The position numbers and the translations under genes were made by a program. From a virus (lineage: Duplodnaviria > Caudoviricetes): DNA of 64,000 nt. The stretch lies in the IMG/VR virus record IMGVR_UViG_3300021375_000006; one strand, written 5' to 3'. Position 1 is the stretch's first letter. Each line of letters begins with the position of its first letter. The notes under the pieces were generated by a model, which worked only from the letters and a program-made list of their open reading frames with translations, searched no databases and was not told the DNA's origin. Below are positions 27,193 through 62,908 of the stretch, piece after piece.

Positions 27193-27621
27193 TTAAGACG
27201 GGAATACTTCAATCGTTCTTTCTTCTCTAACTAAATCTGCCCACTTGCCTTCGTATCTTGTACCTTTGACAATATGGTTATCAACCCAGTGATAGTTACC
27301 ACCTCTTGGTTTACCCATTAGTAGACCATGGTATTTGAATCCATGTTTGTTTAACCAAGCTTCTGTAATATCTCTTACATCTTCAGTTCTTGAAGTAAAG
27401 AAAGTAATTACATGGCCTTCGTCAAACCATTTATTTAAAGTTTCTTTTGCACCTGCATAGGGTAAGACTACTGACATTCTCTCTGGCTCTTCGTTTGGTA
27501 CATCATCTGTAATTGTGCCGTCAATGTCAATTAGATAGTTCTTACACCCATCGTTTAAAACAGGAGAGACTAGGTGTCCGTCATCTCCTATTGTTTCGTT
27601 AAATTTAATTTCTCTTTTCAT
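27193..27621 (-). CDS. HAD phosphatase (capsule-biosynthesis phosphatase-like)
   Basis: LIDIDGTI, FFTSR, LLMGKPRGG, WVD. Confidence 0.8.
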   Translation of the reverse strand: MKREIKFNETIGDDGHLVSPVLNDGCKNYLIDIDGTITDDVPNEEPERMSVVLPYAGAKETLNKWFDEGHVITFFTSRTEDVRDITEAWLNKHGFKYHGLLMGKPRGGNYHWVDNHIVKGTRYEGKWADLVREERTIEVFPS

Positions 27622-27634
27622 ACTTTATTGTAAA

Positions 27635-29062
27635 TTAAGGTTCTTCGTGGTTTCTAATAAATGATACAATAATATATCTCTTACCACCTGTAATTGGCCT
27701 CGCGCCATGTCTATGTGTAATCATTCCAGGGTGAAGTACTGCTGTACCTATTTGCTCTGGATTGGATAATTTTTGATACTGAGGGAACCAAGTTCCACCG
27801 CCACTAAATTCATCATTTAATTTAATAACCATCGTTAGGTGGCTTCTATCATGGTGTAGAGATAGGTGTGATTGTCTAGTCGTTGTATACCTAGCCATGA
27901 AGTTTTCATTTGAGAATGCGTCCCATTGTTTACCTTCTAGGTTCCATTGGTGAATTGCAAGAGGCCTAACTACTTCATGTAATACTTTATTGTAAATTTC
28001 ATCTAGGCCAATATCTTGTAGTAAGACATCATTAGTTGGATAGTGTTCGTGTCTGTCAATAGTCCACTTATCTTTAGCCTCTGCTAGAGCAATTGCTTCT
28101 CTACAGAATCTAGGAGTAAATAACGGGAATTCATATACGTTATCTCCTCTATCTGAAACCATTAAGTCATACTCTCCCTTTGATACTGATAGATTAATAT
28201 ACTTCTCTTTCCATTCATCCCAATTAGATATATCTAATATTTCAAAATACTCTGATGTATCAATATCAAATTCTGGTCTTACATATTCTGTTTGAGTTTG
28301 TTCAGGTTCCTGGTTAATTATTTCACGTTGGTTTGGACTACCCACTTCTGGTTCTATTGTAGAACCTCCAAGTTTACCACCTCTATTCTGTACTATAAAA
28401 TTTGGATCGCGTGTTGCTAATATAGTTAATGATTTTGGAAATAGTTCTTGAATATCATGTCTTCTATGCGGATAACCTAGTGCACTTAAATACTCATCTA
28501 CAGGAATCACGTTTTCTTTTAATCCACCTGATAATAATAGTTTTGCTACATTAGGGTTTTTAATAATATATGCATGTGCATTATACCAGTGTCTAGGATA
28601 AAGCCAAGTTTCATTAATAACCTCTTCTTCAACTTCTTTTTCAATTATATCTCTACCTAATAAGGCAACATCCCAATTAGTATCTACTGGAGGCTCTGCC
28701 AACATTGACATTGAATTACCTTCATTAAAGAAATCTTCTTCTAATATTAGTATTGGACCTAGCCCATCGAATACTGCAGCTTCCCATACTTTTCTATGTG
28801 AAATTGCACAACCAACCTCTCCTGGTAAAACAGACCTTCTCCACCAATCATTCCAAGAATAAGGTGACTCAGGGCCCACATCCCATTTATCATAAACGGT
28901 ATAACCCTCTTTTATATCACCTTCTCTACCATCAAATGCAGAAATAATTTCATACGGGGTATTTTCATAAAACGCACATGATTGTAACTTTTCTTCTATT
29001 GTTTGCTGAAGACTCTCTCTATTTGAGTCTAAAGCTATAACATAAATTTTATTAATTCTCAT
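27635..29062 (-). CDS. GT25 (COLGALT-like) glycosyltransferase fused to PLOD-like lysyl hydroxylase
   Basis: N-half: FDGR, GEVGCAISHRKVW, ILEED, WDVALLGR, AYII, PVDEYL; C-half: YEFPLFT, FMARY, HHD, GGGTWF, HPGMITHRH, KRYIIVSF. Confidence 0.88.
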   Translation of the reverse strand: MRINKIYVIALDSNRESLQQTIEEKLQSCAFYENTPYEIISAFDGREGDIKEGYTVYDKWDVGPESPYSWNDWWRRSVLPGEVGCAISHRKVWEAAVFDGLGPILILEEDFFNEGNSMSMLAEPPVDTNWDVALLGRDIIEKEVEEEVINETWLYPRHWYNAHAYIIKNPNVAKLLLSGGLKENVIPVDEYLSALGYPHRRHDIQELFPKSLTILATRDPNFIVQNRGGKLGGSTIEPEVGSPNQREIINQEPEQTQTEYVRPEFDIDTSEYFEILDISNWDEWKEKYINLSVSKGEYDLMVSDRGDNVYEFPLFTPRFCREAIALAEAKDKWTIDRHEHYPTNDVLLQDIGLDEIYNKVLHEVVRPLAIHQWNLEGKQWDAFSNENFMARYTTTRQSHLSLHHDRSHLTMVIKLNDEFSGGGTWFPQYQKLSNPEQIGTAVLHPGMITHRHGARPITGGKRYIIVSFIRNHEEP

Positions 29063-29082
29063 TATTAGTTATGAATTTTTAT

Positions 29083-29110
29083 ATTATACTAAAGTAACGC
29101 GAAAAGTTTC
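29083..29110 (-). promoter_or_regulatory. class II promoter GAAAC-N17-TATAAT (upstream of GT25-LH; 12 further copies listed in findings)
   Basis: exact 17-bp spacing at 13 sites, all upstream of gene starts. Confidence 0.75.
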
Positions 29111-61187: not shown

Positions 61188-61588
61188 TATAGTTGACCGT
61201 CTTTTTTCATTTGTTCTCTAATTGAAGTTGCAGATATTTCACCAATCTCTCTTGGAGGTATATGTTCAATAATATCATAGCCAACACCTCTACCATAATT
61301 AATAGACTCAATATCTGGTATAATAGTAGGTAAGACTTTACCAGCTTCTATCAGTTCTTTTAACTCTCCCTCTTTTATCATTTCTAAAATCTCTGCAGCA
61401 GTCCATGGGTTTTTTTCATCTGGCTCTACATCTCTAATACCTAGCCAAACATTGTAACCCTCTTTTAATCTCTCATTAATTAACCATAAATGCCCTTTGT
61501 GCAGTGGTTGCCATCTACCAGCAAAGAATGAATACTTAGTTTCAGATGAAGATGATTTGAATGCTGCTTGTGCTTTATACTGTGCCAT
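61187..61588 (-). CDS. HxGH-family nucleotidyltransferase (cytidyltransferase-like)
   Basis: FAGRWQPLHKGH, KNPW, ISATSIR. Confidence 0.85.
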   Translation of the reverse strand: MAQYKAQAAFKSSSSETKYSFFAGRWQPLHKGHLWLINERLKEGYNVWLGIRDVEPDEKNPWTAAEILEMIKEGELKELIEAGKVLPTIIPDIESINYGRGVGYDIIEHIPPREIGEISATSIREQMKKDGQL

Positions 61589-62015
61589 TAATATGTTGTT
61601 TTACTTTTTCGAATGATTGTTCTGGTGTATCTACCGTGGTATCAATATCTACAAAATTTGTTTTAGGTGCCACGTATGCTTCTGCTTTCCAATGATCGCG
61701 TTCGCGCGCTTCGGTAGTATGAATATAGAATTCTACAATAGAATCACCTAAGATCGCTTTAAATTCTTCTCTCTGATCGATATACGGAGAAACTAGACTT
61801 ACAATTACATCATGGTTTTGATTATGTAGATAATGAGCAATCCTTTGAGCAGTAGCCACATTCTTTACTCGACCATTAATACTGTAGTCTTTATTAGTAA
61901 AGAGTTCACGCATTTCATCACCATCAATTCTAAAGGCATTAGGTAATATCTCTTTTAGCTTATTTGCTAATACCGTCTTTCCTGCGGCCGGTTGGCCTGT
62001 AAACCAGTATATCAT
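61575..62015 (-). CDS. cysC: adenylyl-sulfate (APS) kinase
   Basis: WFTGQPAAGKT, IDGDEMR, VSLVSPY, YVAP. Confidence 0.88.
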   Translation of the reverse strand: MIYWFTGQPAAGKTVLANKLKEILPNAFRIDGDEMRELFTNKDYSINGRVKNVATAQRIAHYLHNQNHDVIVSLVSPYIDQREEFKAILGDSIVEFYIHTTEARERDHWKAEAYVAPKTNFVDIDTTVDTPEQSFEKVKQHINGTV

Positions 62016-62018
62016 ATT

Positions 62019-62213
62019 TTATCCACAAGATCTAGAAGTACATTGATAACATAAAACCCTATCGGTTTCTACGGGAACCTCTACAATATTCTTACACCCA
62101 TCGATCGGTGCGTATTGTCCCCATTTACTTTCTTCAGGATTATGGTTCATACATTTAATCTTCTTGTATGAGTCTGCTCCTGTTCTTCTCTTAATTTCTT
62201 TTGCCTTTCTCAT
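62019..62213 (-). CDS. small Cys-rich protein
   Basis: 64 aa, several Cys including CYQC. Confidence 0.65.
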   Translation of the reverse strand: MRKAKEIKRRTGADSYKKIKCMNHNPEESKWGQYAPIDGCKNIVEVPVETDRVLCYQCTSRSCG

Positions 62214-62908
62214 TGTTTTGGTTTACCTTTTAATTTATCATCCCATTCCCATGAATATAAAGAGCGGTGTCGATATGCTCTTGCTTCAAGATCAGAATAG
62301 GGTACATATAAATAGCCCCTTTTAGCCAATTTTTCTTTAATCTCTTCATGTGGTGTTTTTCGGTCTCCACCAACAAATTTTCTAACTTGGTCACCTAACC
62401 ATGAAGGGCCTGTCCAAATCAGACCATCGGGTCTAGCTGCGACAGCCTTTTCAATCGCCGCCTTTAGGTACATACCTAATTCTGAACCTGCCTTTAATCC
62501 CCAAGATTGGTTTGGTAATGTACTATCCATTGGTTGTTCCGGTTTCGTACCCATGCCACCCCATACTGATTCTGGATTTTCATGATACCAGAAGATACCT
62601 TCAATACCATCCCAATCTATATCATCATAGACTCCGATACCTCCTATAGGTTGAAAGTCTGCATCTAAATAAACACCACCGAATTCTGCTAAGATCCAAA
62701 CTCTAAGTATATCTGCTTTGAGAGCACCTTTTGTTTCTCTACCAAATGCATCCAAAAATCCAGGTGACATTGTAGGTAGATTAACATCTGTCCACATACG
62801 ATGTTGCCATGTATCAGGAAGTCCCCTAATAACCCCAAATATATGTTGTTTAATATCTTCAGGCTGAGGTGTATCGGTTATCCATATTTGGTGGAGCGTT
62901 CTTTCCAT
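62210..62908 (-). CDS. GT32 (OCH1/DXD) glycosyltransferase
   Basis: LHQIWI, KADILRVWILAEFGGVYLDAD, TGP. Confidence 0.88.
   Translation of the reverse strand: MERTLHQIWITDTPQPEDIKQHIFGVIRGLPDTWQHRMWTDVNLPTMSPGFLDAFGRETKGALKADILRVWILAEFGGVYLDADFQPIGGIGVYDDIDWDGIEGIFWYHENPESVWGGMGTKPEQPMDSTLPNQSWGLKAGSELGMYLKAAIEKAVAARPDGLIWTGPSWLGDQVRKFVGGDRKTPHEEIKEKLAKRGYLYVPYSDLEARAYRHRSLYSWEWDDKLKGKPKQ

What the first reader, a model, noticed from the sequence alone, without database searches (positions are those of the whole stretch)
27193..62908. Candidate phage pathway for hydroxylating, glycosylating and sulfating virion fibres
Seen: a contiguous block (HAD phosphatase, GT25-lysyl hydroxylase fusion, sulfotransferase-kinase fusion, GT4-sulfotransferase fusion, P4H-like oxygenase) directly beside two collagens and Ser/Thr-repeat fibres with an embedded DUF2827. 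More distantly there are an HxGH nucleotidyltransferase, APS kinase, GT32 and a GNA1-like acetylase. Known: animal and mimivirus collagens are hydroxylated on X-Lys-Gly and then glycosylated, and sulfotransferases need PAPS made by ATP sulfurylase plus APS kinase. Inferred: this phage dresses ~200-nm fibres with sulfated glycans, perhaps mimicking algal or mucus polysaccharides recognised by Bacteroidota, or stabilising or shielding the fibres. I know of no described bacteriophage with this full chain.
Basis: partly seen in the sequence, partly recalled or inferred. Interest (0 to 1): 0.92.

Follow-up and report, generated by a model that had tools for sequence, protein, structure and literature searches.

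The report
Phage collagen fibres with modifying enzymes
An uncultured marine jumbo phage encodes four collagen-like fibre genes next to enzymes related to the animal and giant-virus collagen-lysine hydroxylase and glycosyltransferase, plus a mobile pair of sulfotransferases. The hydroxylation and glycosylation part is well supported by comparison with other phages, but that the fibres are sulfated remains an untested inference.

Summary
There are four collagen genes, not two. Two have Lys only at the Y position (39/0 and 69/0, Y versus X). Two are Gly-Ser-Ser collagens.

The block splits into separable modules.
1. A core of PKHD-type oxygenase, GT4, GT25-lysyl hydroxylase fusion, HAD and ATP-grasp is conserved beside collagens in related jumbo phages. 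The hydroxylase half matches mimivirus L230 (E 2e-28). Roseobacter phage CRP-6 independently pairs a GT25-hydroxylase protein with a Lys-type collagen tail fibre.
2. DUF2827 has a GT-B glycosyltransferase fold.
3. The two sulfotransferases form a mobile cassette. Of 30 loci carrying it, 29 have no collagen or hydroxylase nearby. Only this phage and one relative combine both. The second sulfotransferase domain is fused to GT4 here and to GT25 elsewhere.
4. The APS-kinase gene belongs to a three-gene cassette found in at least 535 viral loci. In 21 of 50 records tested, the cassette shares its contig with a sulfotransferase gene.

So fibre hydroxylation and glycosylation are likely. A single chain ending in sulfated fibre glycans is possible but unproven. 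This scan found the hydroxylase-collagen module before on other phage DNA. I found no published description of it in phages.

The parts
26241..27173 (-). ATP-grasp (R2K_3/TTL-like) ligase; part of the conserved core next to HAD
   Evidence: Pfam weak hits. A homologue is present in 23 of 27 loci with a fused GT25-hydroxylase.
27193..27621 (-). HAD-superfamily phosphatase (LNS2/IIIA-like)
   Evidence: Pfam E 9e-8. Homologues occur in 23 of 27 GT25-hydroxylase loci and in 22 of 80 APS-kinase cassette loci.
27635..29062 (-). GT25 (COLGALT-like) fused to a PLOD/L230-type lysyl hydroxylase
   Evidence: The HHD motif, the distal His and the GKRY Arg are invariant across 32 homologues.
29089..30645 (-). 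Sulfotransferase (residues 3-253) fused to a protein-kinase-like domain (residues 295-518)
30635..32713 (-). GT4 glycosyltransferase fused to a divergent sulfotransferase domain ('STB', residues about 441-692); the likely true start is the ATG near 32671
   Evidence: An RNA-library contig of a close relative spans 30396-32052 without gaps.
32673..33644 (-). Low-complexity Ala/Gly/Glu-rich protein with a poly-Lys tail; seen only in this phage
33622..34245 (-). PKHD-type 2OG/Fe(II) oxygenase ('P4H-like')
   Evidence: A homologue is present in 15 of 27 GT25-hydroxylase loci.
34310..35230 (-). Tail-fibre-like protein with an S74 intramolecular chaperone domain
35262..37604 (-). Lys-type collagen fibre: 216 GXY triplets, Lys at Y 39 times and at X 0 times; Cys-rich C-terminus
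37623..40091 (-). Lys-type collagen fibre: 230 uninterrupted triplets, Lys at Y 69 and at X 0, Pro at X 98 and at Y 5; C-terminal S74 chaperone
40139..42286 (-). Ser/Thr/Gly-rich protein with no family match; probably a fibre or distal domain
42307..45015 (-). Ser-type collagen: 184 triplets, mostly Gly-Ser-Ser or Gly-Thr-Ser, in five blocks
45094..46362 (-). DUF2827, a GT-B-fold glycosyltransferase embedded among the fibre genes
46466..47833 (-). Repeat-rich fibre-like protein that shares the N-terminal M-A/S-R-L-K-x-K-Q-I motif with the Ser-type collagen
48017..49948 (-). Thr/Ala/Gly/Asp-rich protein with no family match, within the fibre block
50006..53308 (-). Ser-type collagen: 183 triplets with globular N- and C-terminal domains
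60984..61187 (-). DUF2061 small membrane protein; third gene of the APS-kinase cassette
61187..61588 (-). 133-aa HxGH nucleotidyltransferase with NMNAT-like motifs
61575..62015 (-). Short APS-kinase-family P-loop kinase
62210..62908 (-). GT32-type (DXD) glycosyltransferase-like protein; target unknown

Best explanation
The region is the fibre-gene block of a marine jumbo phage. It holds two Lys-type collagens, two Ser-type collagens and several non-collagen fibre proteins. Separable enzyme modules surround it, and they most likely decorate these fibres in the host cytoplasm before assembly.

Module 1 is conserved: PKHD oxygenase, GT4, GT25-lysyl hydroxylase, HAD and ATP-grasp. The hydroxylase domain would convert Y-position Lys of the two Lys-type collagens to hydroxylysine. 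The fused GT25 domain would add the first hexose, and GT4 may extend it. Homology, active-site conservation, Lys placement and conserved synteny are shown. The chemistry is inferred.

Module 2 is DUF2827, a GT-B glycosyltransferase inside the fibre block. It probably O-glycosylates Ser/Thr-rich fibres. This is inferred from its fold, its position and the association of the bacterial family with trimeric adhesins.

Module 3 is a mobile two-gene sulfotransferase cassette, a divergent sulfotransferase domain followed by a sulfotransferase-kinase fusion. It was inserted into module 1 in this lineage. The first domain is fused to GT4 here and to GT25 in other phages, so its likeliest substrate is the sugar laid down by its glycosyltransferase partner. 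The kinase-like domain may add phosphate. This is inferred.

Module 4 is the APS-kinase, HxGH-nucleotidyltransferase and DUF2061 cassette, about 30 kb away. It probably supplies or boosts PAPS. This is inferred from family membership and from its frequent adjacency to sulfotransferase genes in other phages.
For: Module 1:
- The hydroxylase half matches L230 (E 2e-28) and LH3 (E 4e-23). The GT25 half matches COLGALT1.
- The Fe/2OG residues are invariant in 32 homologues.
- Lys sits at Y versus X 39/0 and 69/0, which accounts for about 90% of all Lys in these two proteins.
- Relatives at 52-75% identity keep the order collagens, S74, oxygenase, GT4, GT25-hydroxylase, HAD, ATP-grasp, and their collagens carry Lys mostly at Y.
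- Of 27 loci with the fusion, 22 have GT4, 23 HAD, 23 ATP-grasp, 15 the oxygenase and 20 a collagen.
- In the unrelated 45-kb Roseobacter phage CRP-6, a GT25-hydroxylase protein lies two genes after a GAKGQKGE collagen tail fibre.

Module 2:
- The model has pLDDT 92, and Foldseek places it with GT4-type GT-B enzymes at about E 1e-11.
- A preprint links DUF2827 to trimeric autotransporter adhesins.

Module 3:
- The sulfotransferase fold scores Z 14.6 and the PAPS-binding motifs are invariant.
- The two genes are adjacent in 29 of 30 loci. The divergent domain is fused to GT25 in about 11 loci and to GT4 here.
- S74 tail-fibre genes lie within 10 kb in 21 of 30 loci.

Module 4:
- Pfam APS_kinase scores 58 bits, and the P-loop, DGDxxR and SPY..R motifs align to solved APS kinases.
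- An APS kinase is present in both sulfotransferase-positive viral records that are at least 67% complete, and in 0 of 5 sulfotransferase-negative relatives.
- 21 of 50 cassette-bearing records carry a Sulfotransfer_1 gene, and at least 16 of those genes lie within about 2.4 kb of the cassette, next to tail or fibre genes and glycosyltransferases.

RNA-library contigs from three studies cover the enzyme and collagen genes. This is weak evidence, because DNA carry-over is possible.
Against: - There is no biochemical or virion data.
- The sulfotransferase pair occurs without collagen or hydroxylase in 29 of 30 loci.
- In a complete 327-kb phage the pair sits between Mom-like, VWA and ribonucleotide-reductase genes, not beside fibres.
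- Most fibre-adjacent sulfotransferase loci come from one syntenic lineage, where the pair lies at the boundary between fibre and replication genes. Adjacency may therefore be positional rather than functional.
- The divergent sulfotransferase domain has lost the canonical Arg and Ser of the 3'-phosphate motif.
- 0 of 9 long records carrying the APS-kinase cassette hold this sulfotransferase-kinase fusion.
- The nucleotidyltransferase looks like an NMN adenylyltransferase.
- Some GT25-hydroxylase loci show only Ser-type collagen within 10 kb.
- Pro is at X, so the role of the PKHD oxygenase is unclear.
Confidence: 0.45

Rival explanations
1. The sulfotransferase-kinase fusion and its partner act directly on the fibre polypeptides. 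They would O-sulfate and/or phosphorylate Ser, Thr, Tyr or newly made hydroxylysine, with no glycan intermediate. This follows the hydroxylate-then-sulfate scheme predicted for bacterial collagen-like and tail-collar proteins.
For: - Iyer et al. 2010 (PMC2938197) predicted hydroxylation followed by sulfation in bacterial operons that combine 2OG dioxygenases, sulfotransferases, PAPS synthetases and collagen-like proteins.
- The sulfotransferase domain superposes on tyrosylprotein sulfotransferases at Z 11.5-11.8. The C-terminal domain superposes on protein kinases (Rio2, Bud32) at Z about 9.
- The Ser-type collagens offer hundreds of Ser residues.
Against: - The partner domain is repeatedly fused to glycosyltransferases, GT4 here and GT25 in about 11 loci. 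This points to a sugar-linked step.
- The cassette is not correlated with collagens of either type.
- Protein-language-model feature neighbours of the kinase-like domain include the sugar kinases WaaY and Kdo.
Confidence: 0.2
2. The sulfotransferase pair and the APS-kinase cassette do not target the virion. They would modify host envelope glycans or small molecules, or rewire host sulfur metabolism, and lie next to fibre genes only because of genome-module boundaries.
For: - The pair is independent of collagen and hydroxylase.
- In the 327-kb phage it sits among nucleotide-metabolism genes.
- The APS-kinase cassette occurs in at least 535 viral loci, mostly without this pair.
- In cultured Xanthomonadaceae phages the fused kinase-nucleotidyltransferase lies next to a COG3236/NADAR-like gene or among early genes.
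Against: - In this phage and in L003 the pair is inserted inside the collagen-modification core and, in this phage, fused to its GT4.
- S74 fibre genes lie nearby in 21 of 30 loci.
- In other phages the APS-kinase cassette with its sulfotransferases sits directly beside an S74 fibre, or beside tail sheath and baseplate genes.
Confidence: 0.2
3. Some of the glycosyltransferases, and possibly the sulfotransferase-kinase, modify the phage's DNA rather than proteins. The target would be 5-hydroxymethylcytosine.
For: - The second thymidylate-synthase homologue (55623-56486) is closest to T4 dCMP hydroxymethylase (E 3.9e-17).
- Feature neighbours of DUF2827 include the T4 DNA alpha-glucosyltransferase family.
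- A Mom-like gene lies near the sulfotransferase pair in the 327-kb phage.
Against: - The hydroxylase half is a collagen-lysine hydroxylase homologue, and it travels with X-Lys-Gly collagens.
- The complete sulfotransferase-positive 327-kb phage shows only one thymidylate-synthase-family gene. A sulfotransferase-negative relative has the second homologue. The two are therefore not correlated.
- DUF2827 lies inside the fibre block here and next to collagens in L005 and L006.
Confidence: 0.05

Closest known systems
Mimivirus L230, a bifunctional collagen lysyl hydroxylase and glucosyltransferase (hydroxylase domain PDB 6AX6; PMC5802723), together with mimivirus collagen glucosyltransferase R699 (PMC9546862)
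   Same: A virus encodes both collagens and a hydroxylase-glycosyltransferase fusion. The hydroxylase domains are homologous (E 2e-28) and keep the same Fe/2OG residues.
   Different: The host here is a bacterium, so modification must happen in the cytoplasm. The glycosyltransferase half is a GT25 (COLGALT-like) placed N-terminal, not an LH3-type glucosyltransferase. The protein is 475 aa, not 895 aa (L230 length taken from an earlier scan note, not checked here). Extra modules are present: sulfotransferases, a kinase-like domain, DUF2827 and an ATP-grasp enzyme.
Animal PLOD/LH3 with COLGALT1 (PDB 6FXK, 8ZGC, 9EVJ)
   Same: The same two catalytic families, and the same X-Lys-Gly substrate context in the neighbouring collagens.
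   Different: In animals the two activities sit on separate ER-lumen proteins. Here they are joined in one small cytoplasmic polypeptide. Activity and sugar specificity are untested.
Bacterial operons predicted by Iyer, Abhiman, de Souza and Aravind 2010 (PMC2938197): 2OG dioxygenase, sulfotransferase, PAPS synthetase and collagen-like or tail-collar proteins
   Same: The same logic of hydroxylase plus sulfotransferase plus PAPS supply beside Gly-rich collagen-like or phage-fibre-like proteins.
   Different: Those operons use beta-hydroxylase or phytanoyl-CoA-hydroxylase and JmjC families, in bacterial chromosomes. Here a PLOD-type hydroxylase is fused to GT25, the sulfotransferases are fused to a glycosyltransferase and a kinase-like domain, and everything lies in a phage genome. 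The prediction was never tested experimentally, as far as I found.
Virion O-glycosylation by phage-encoded glycosyltransferases in mycobacteriophages (title known only from papers that cite it; details from my own knowledge)
   Same: Phage-encoded glycosyltransferases modify the phage's own structural proteins in the host cytoplasm.
   Different: The targets there are capsid and tail-tube proteins, not collagens. No hydroxylase, sulfotransferase or PAPS genes are involved.
DUF2827 proteins next to trimeric autotransporter adhesins in Burkholderia, Veillonellales and Pasteurellales (bioRxiv 10.64898/2026.01.22.700529)
   Same: The same Pfam family (E 4.7e-83). These are cytoplasmic predicted glycosyltransferases encoded beside trimeric fibrous surface proteins.
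   Different: Here the neighbours are phage collagen-like fibres, not autotransporters. Neither case has been shown biochemically.

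Membership tests
Collagen lysyl hydroxylase (PLOD / L230 hydroxylase domain) | Significant sequence homology across the whole catalytic DSBH domain | tested here: met
   Residues 280-469 match 6AX6 at E 2e-28 and LH3 at E 4e-23.
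Collagen lysyl hydroxylase (PLOD / L230 hydroxylase domain) | Fe(II) triad HxD...H and a 2OG-binding Arg | tested here: met
   The HHD motif (403-405), H450/H452 and R462 are invariant in 32 homologues and align to the same residues of L230.
Collagen lysyl hydroxylase (PLOD / L230 hydroxylase domain) | Hydroxylates Lys in X-Lys-Gly of collagen | not testable with these tools
   Only indirect support. The neighbouring collagens carry Lys at Y (39 and 69) and never at X. Collagens in relatives and in CRP-6 also carry Lys mainly or only at Y.
GT25 / COLGALT collagen galactosyltransferase | GT25 catalytic domain | tested here: met
   Pfam PF01755 scores 45.9 bits against a cut-off of 24. COLGALT1 chains match at E 1.6e-7 over residues 73-199.
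GT25 / COLGALT collagen galactosyltransferase | Transfers galactose to hydroxylysine | not testable with these tools
   GT25 domains are also fused to the divergent sulfotransferase in loci without any hydroxylase. Acceptor specificity therefore cannot be assumed.
PAPS-dependent sulfotransferase (Sulfotransfer_1) | Sulfotransferase fold with 5'-PSB and 3'-PB PAPS-binding motifs (gene 29089-30645) | tested here: met
   Pfam scores 45.1 bits against a cut-off of 22. VIA gives Z 14.6 with 208 residues aligned. R13, R14, G16, T17, R101, D102 and S109 are invariant in 41 sequences.
PAPS-dependent sulfotransferase (Sulfotransfer_1) | The same motifs in the C-half of 30635-32713 (the divergent domain) | tested here: inconclusive
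   hhalign against the other sulfotransferase gives probability 93% with the loops aligned. The first Arg and the Ser of the 3'-PB motif are replaced (T/S-D-P-R-E...N). Pfam scores 17.3 bits, below the cut-off of 22.
Protein-kinase-like fold (Rio / Bud32 / Kdo-WaaP-WaaY / APH) | Bilobal kinase fold with catalytic Lys, Asp...Asn loop and a DxG metal-binding Asp | tested here: inconclusive
   Rio2 Z 9.4, RIOK3 8.9, Bud32 8.8 over residues about 295-518. K339/K345, D448, N454 and D467-L-D-G are invariant. No Pfam kinase family matched. Atlas feature neighbours are WaaY, Kdo, RIO1 and APH at 0.92.
APS kinase (CysC) | Family HMM above threshold, with P-loop and APS-binding motifs | tested here: met
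   Pfam scores 58.3 bits against a cut-off of 21.1. It aligns end to end with solved APS kinases, with GKT, DGDxxR and SPY..R conserved. NCBIfam equivalog cut-offs are not reached, and at 146 aa it is shorter than CysC.
ATP sulfurylase (Sat-type) for the 133-aa nucleotidyltransferase | Homology to ATP sulfurylase catalytic domain | tested here: inconclusive
   Only NMN adenylyltransferases matched (NCBIfam E 8.8e-11; PDB 2QJO E 3.4e-6). The link to sulfation is by context only: adjacent to APS kinase in 74 of 80 loci, fused to it in cultured phages, and with sulfotransferases nearby.
Collagen prolyl 4-hydroxylase | P4H-type 2OG oxygenase acting on X-Pro-Gly | tested here: inconclusive
   Pfam 2OG-FeII_Oxy_3 E 7e-15. 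The nearest solved proteins are PiuC/YbiX PKHD hydroxylases (E 2e-6), ahead of a P4H (E 0.006). The collagens have Pro at X (98) and rarely at Y (5).
DUF2827 (PF10933) | Full-length family match and glycosyltransferase fold | tested here: met
   E 4.7e-83 over profile positions 1-362 of 362. The model has pLDDT 92 and a GT-B fold, matching MshA, BshA and WaaG at about E 1e-11.

The most novel reading that the evidence does not exclude
Marine phages carry complete, portable sulfation kits. Each kit would hold an APS-kinase cassette, whose tiny HxGH nucleotidyltransferase acts as a minimal ATP sulfurylase, together with dedicated sulfotransferases fused to glycosyltransferases and a sugar or protein kinase. 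In this phage the kit has been grafted onto an animal-like collagen hydroxylysine-glycosylation system. The result would be roughly 200-nm virion fibres bearing sulfated, possibly phosphorylated, glycans. That would be the first sulfated structural glycoprotein of any bacteriophage.
Probability: 0.25. Interest if true: 0.88.

Novelty: new variant of a known kind. Interest (0 to 1): 0.7.

Why it matters
Collagen lysine hydroxylation and glycosylation are textbook animal chemistry, known outside animals only in mimivirus. Finding the same enzyme families in hundreds of marine phage contigs, beside suitable collagen substrates, suggests this chemistry is widespread in the bacterial virosphere. 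It could be reconstituted in bacteria with compact soluble enzymes, which matters for recombinant collagen production.

The sulfation side is less certain. If it is real, it adds a post-translational modification not described for phage virions. Sulfated, glycan-coated fibres about 200 nm long would then be candidates for adhesion to marine polysaccharides or particles, or for shielding the virion.

The very common APS-kinase, nucleotidyltransferase and DUF2061 cassette is itself an uncharacterised phage module that can be tested directly.

Tried and rejected
- Megablast of 27193-47833 against GenBank phages found no match. tblastn of the sulfotransferase-kinase fusion against the same collection also found none. 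No cultured relative carries it.
- No whole genome is held for this window, and ENA contigs could not be searched whole. Presence and absence tests therefore rest on IMG/VR records, many of which are fragments.
- PDB sequence searches gave nothing useful for the whole GT4-sulfotransferase protein, the divergent sulfotransferase profile or DUF2827. Profile-profile comparison and folding were needed.
- I tested whether the APS-kinase cassette is dedicated to this sulfotransferase pair. I rejected that: 0 of 9 long cassette-bearing records hold the fusion.
- I tested whether the sulfotransferase pair is tied to collagen or hydroxylysine. I rejected that: 29 of 30 loci lack both.
- I tested whether the pair tracks a dCMP-hydroxymethylase homologue, as expected for a DNA target. 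It does not: a complete sulfotransferase-positive phage has one thymidylate-synthase-family gene, and a sulfotransferase-negative relative has two.
- Literature searches for phage sulfotransferases, jumbo-phage sulfation, DUF2061, and lysyl hydroxylase in bacteriophages found no description of these modules in phages. The library is incomplete, so this is not proof of novelty.
- Depth and coverage of RNA-library contigs cannot show transcription or rank genes.
- No complex prediction was run.

Full report
**What is there.**
All genes of the region lie on the minus strand.
- 27193-27621: a HAD-like phosphatase.
- 27635-29062: a GT25 plus 2OG-oxygenase fusion.
- 29089-30645: a Sulfotransfer_1 protein with a long C-terminal extension.
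- 30635-32713: a GT4 with a weak sulfotransferase C-half.
- 33622-34245: a 2OG-FeII_Oxy_3 oxygenase.
- 45094-46362: DUF2827.
- 61187-61588: an HxGH nucleotidyltransferase.
- 61575-62015: an APS-kinase-family protein.
- 62210-62908: a GT32-type protein.

Four genes, not two, match the Pfam Collagen family (E 1e-44 to 4e-89). No whole genome is held for the window. Earlier notes of this scan place at least 155 kb of the same genome before the window's start. The 27193-33644 stretch, which covers the enzyme genes, recurs in seawater metagenomes of many studies.

**The fibres.**
Counting Gly-X-Y triplets gives two classes.
- Lys-type: 35262-37604 has 216 triplets and 37623-40091 has 230 uninterrupted triplets. 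Lys sits at Y 39 and 69 times and never at X, which is about 90% of all their lysines. Pro sits at X (98) and hardly at Y (5).
- Ser-type: 42307-45015 and 50006-53308 are built of Gly-Ser-Ser and Gly-Thr-Ser triplets and have almost no Lys.

That gene ends in an S74 intramolecular chaperone domain, typical of phage fibres and spikes. The next gene, 34310-35230, matches tail-fibre PHROGs. These points support a virion-fibre role but do not prove it.

**The lysine module.**
- The C-half of 27635-29062 matches the solved hydroxylase domain of mimivirus L230 (E 2e-28) and human LH3 (E 4e-23). The N-half matches COLGALT1 (E about 2e-7).
- The fusion is a large family: 513 protein clusters at E<=1e-5, many on contigs of 190-260 kb. 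Its HHD motif, distal His and 2OG-binding Arg are invariant.
- Relatives at 52-75% identity keep the order collagens, S74, small protein, PKHD oxygenase, GT4, GT25-hydroxylase, HAD, ATP-grasp. Their collagens again carry Lys almost only at Y.
- Across 27 loci with the fused protein, GT4 is present in 22, HAD in 23, ATP-grasp in 23, the oxygenase in 15 and a collagen within 10 kb in 20.
- Independent evidence comes from the cultured 45-kb Roseobacter phage CRP-6. Its gp58 is a GT25, middle domain and hydroxylase protein. It lies two genes after gp60, a 'putative tail fiber' that is a 99-triplet GAKGQKGE collagen.
- This scan has reported the same module on other phage and bacterial DNA. I found no publication describing it in phages.
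- The 'P4H-like' enzyme is nearest to PiuC/YbiX PKHD hydroxylases. With Pro at X, its substrate is open.

**DUF2827.**
The family has about 1,000 representative clusters. An AF2 model (pLDDT 92) has a GT-B fold closest to the GT4 enzymes MshA, BshA and WaaG. A 2026 preprint finds DUF2827 genes constantly beside trimeric autotransporter adhesins and proposes that they glycosylate them. Here the gene lies between fibre genes, and in L005 and L006 it lies directly upstream of collagens. A fibre O-glycosyltransferase is the most economical reading.

**The sulfotransferases.**
- The 518-aa protein folds with pLDDT 87. Residues 3-253 form a sulfotransferase domain (Z 14.6 to SULT3A1; tyrosylprotein sulfotransferases Z 11.5-11.8). 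Residues 295-518 form a protein-kinase-like domain (Rio2 Z 9.4).
- Both PAPS-binding motifs and a Lys / Asp...Asn / DLDG set are invariant in 41 homologues.
- The C-half of the GT4 protein is a paralogous, divergent sulfotransferase domain (hhalign probability 93%). It has lost the canonical Arg and Ser of the 3'-phosphate motif.

- The fusion family is small, with 69 clusters. In 29 of 30 loci the divergent domain is encoded immediately upstream of it.
- In 29 of 30 loci there is no collagen and no GT25-hydroxylase within 10 kb. The viral loci also lack GT4 and the PKHD oxygenase.
- Only this phage and its relative L003 combine the two systems. Relatives at about 52-54% identity lack the sulfotransferases. 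The pair is therefore a mobile cassette inserted into the collagen-modification core.
- Two observations still tie it to glycan or fibre chemistry. The divergent domain is fused to GT4 here and to a GT25 domain in about 11 other loci. S74 tail-fibre genes lie within 10 kb in 21 of 30 loci.
- Most of those loci belong to one syntenic lineage, however. In a complete 327-kb phage the pair lies among Mom-like, VWA and ribonucleotide-reductase genes. The target is not settled.

**PAPS supply.**
- The 146-aa kinase passes the Pfam APS_kinase threshold. It aligns along its full length to solved APS kinases, with the P-loop, DGDxxR and SPY..R motifs conserved.
- It overlaps the 133-aa nucleotidyltransferase. 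That protein's motifs and best matches are NMN adenylyltransferases, and no ATP sulfurylase matched.
- The trio of kinase, nucleotidyltransferase and DUF2061 is a conserved cassette in at least 535 viral loci. In the best 80, the kinase is adjacent in 74 and DUF2061 in 66.
- In cultured Xylella and Stenotrophomonas phages the first two are fused into one protein.
- The cassette is not dedicated to the sulfotransferase pair: 0 of 9 long cassette-bearing records hold the fusion.
- It is nevertheless linked to sulfation. 21 of 50 cassette-bearing records, most of them small fragments, carry a Sulfotransfer_1 gene, and at least 16 of those genes lie within 0.6-2.4 kb of the cassette.
- Two examples were annotated. 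One runs S74 fibre, sulfotransferase, two unknowns, kinase, nucleotidyltransferase, DUF2061, with a GT4-GT9 fusion opposite. The other runs three sulfotransferases, a GT2-like protein, kinase, HAD and nucleotidyltransferase, beside tail sheath and baseplate genes.
- Both sulfotransferase-pair records that are at least 67% complete have an APS kinase. One is a canonical 198-aa CysC (E 3e-59). None of five pair-negative relatives has one.
- I read this as phage sulfation cassettes that include their own APS kinase. Whether the small nucleotidyltransferase makes APS is an open and testable idea.

**Rivals.**
- Direct protein sulfation or phosphorylation fits the 2010 prediction of Iyer et al. for bacterial collagen-like proteins and the fold matches to protein-modifying enzymes. 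The glycosyltransferase fusions argue for sugars.
- A non-virion target, such as host envelope or metabolism, fits the independence of the cassettes and the 327-kb context.
- A DNA target is suggested by a dCMP-hydroxymethylase homologue at 55623-56486 (E 3.9e-17 to T4 gp42). That gene does not track the sulfotransferase pair and cannot explain the collagen-lysine enzymes. It may explain one of the other glycosyltransferases, such as GT32.

**Verdict.**
Fibre hydroxylation and glycosylation are likely (about 0.7). Sulfation of something by phage enzymes using PAPS is likely. Sulfated fibre glycans made by one continuous chain are possible (about 0.3-0.4) but unproven.

The lysine module is a new variant of the mimivirus and animal system, and this scan has already seen it repeatedly. 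The added value here is the mobile sulfotransferase pair with its glycosyltransferase and kinase fusions, and the widespread APS-kinase cassette. RNA-library contigs of three studies cover the genes, but DNA carry-over cannot be excluded.

Noticed in passing
window 60984-62015; loci L075-L154, L149, L105: An APS-kinase-like, 133-aa HxGH nucleotidyltransferase and DUF2061 three-gene cassette occurs in at least 535 viral loci. It often lies within about 2 kb of stand-alone sulfotransferases, glycosyltransferases and a HAD protein, beside tail or fibre genes. In cultured Xylella and Stenotrophomonas phages the first two genes are fused. It looks like an undescribed phage sulfation-supply module.
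   Followed up: partly
window 55623-56486: The second thymidylate-synthase homologue is closest to T4 dCMP hydroxymethylase (E 3.9e-17) and to CMP hydroxymethylase MilA. A canonical ThyA lies at 59236-60156. The phage probably has 5-hydroxymethylcytosine or a derivative in its DNA.
   Followed up: partly
window 26241-27173: An ATP-grasp (R2K_3/TTL-like) ligase is conserved next to the HAD gene in 23 of 27 GT25-hydroxylase loci. It may add amino acids to a protein, perhaps the fibres. Its N-terminus (MKIKDFQTFLNE) resembles the capsid-targeting leaders flagged elsewhere in this genome.
   Followed up: no
window 32673-33644: A low-complexity Ala/Gly/Glu/Val-rich protein of about 310 aa, ending in a run of seven Lys encoded by a poly-A tract. 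It is inserted between the oxygenase and GT4 only in this phage and has no homologue in any fetched locus.
   Followed up: no
L009 (Roseobacter phage CRP-6, MK613348) 7971-9740: gp58, annotated as hypothetical, is a 590-aa protein with a GT25 domain, a middle domain and a lysyl hydroxylase domain. It lies two genes after gp60, a collagen tail fibre with Lys at Y. This offers a cultured system in which phage collagen hydroxylation could be tested.
   Followed up: partly
window 54654-55331, 56535-58547, 22357-23157: The phage encodes its own ClpP protease, a ClpB-type double AAA+ disaggregase and a DnaJ. Relatives also encode HSP20 and ribosomal protein S21. This is an unusually full proteostasis set, and it might help fold the very long fibres.
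   Followed up: no
window 42307-45015 and 46466-47833; L005 1263-4415 and 4417-7659: Several fibre proteins of different repeat types share an N-terminal motif (M-S/A-R-L-K/R-L/V-K-Q-I/F). It is probably a common attachment module for anchoring different fibres to the same virion site.
   Followed up: no
P0060: One GT25-hydroxylase homologue (54% identical) is recorded on a contig of 104 Mb. The contig may be a eukaryotic chromosome assembly that contains phage or bacterial contamination, or an insertion.
   Followed up: no
L030 4738-5604: In the complete 327-kb phage the sulfotransferase pair lies about 3.6 kb from a Mom-family (DNA adenine modification) homologue and next to ribonucleotide reductase and VWA-domain proteins.
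   Followed up: no
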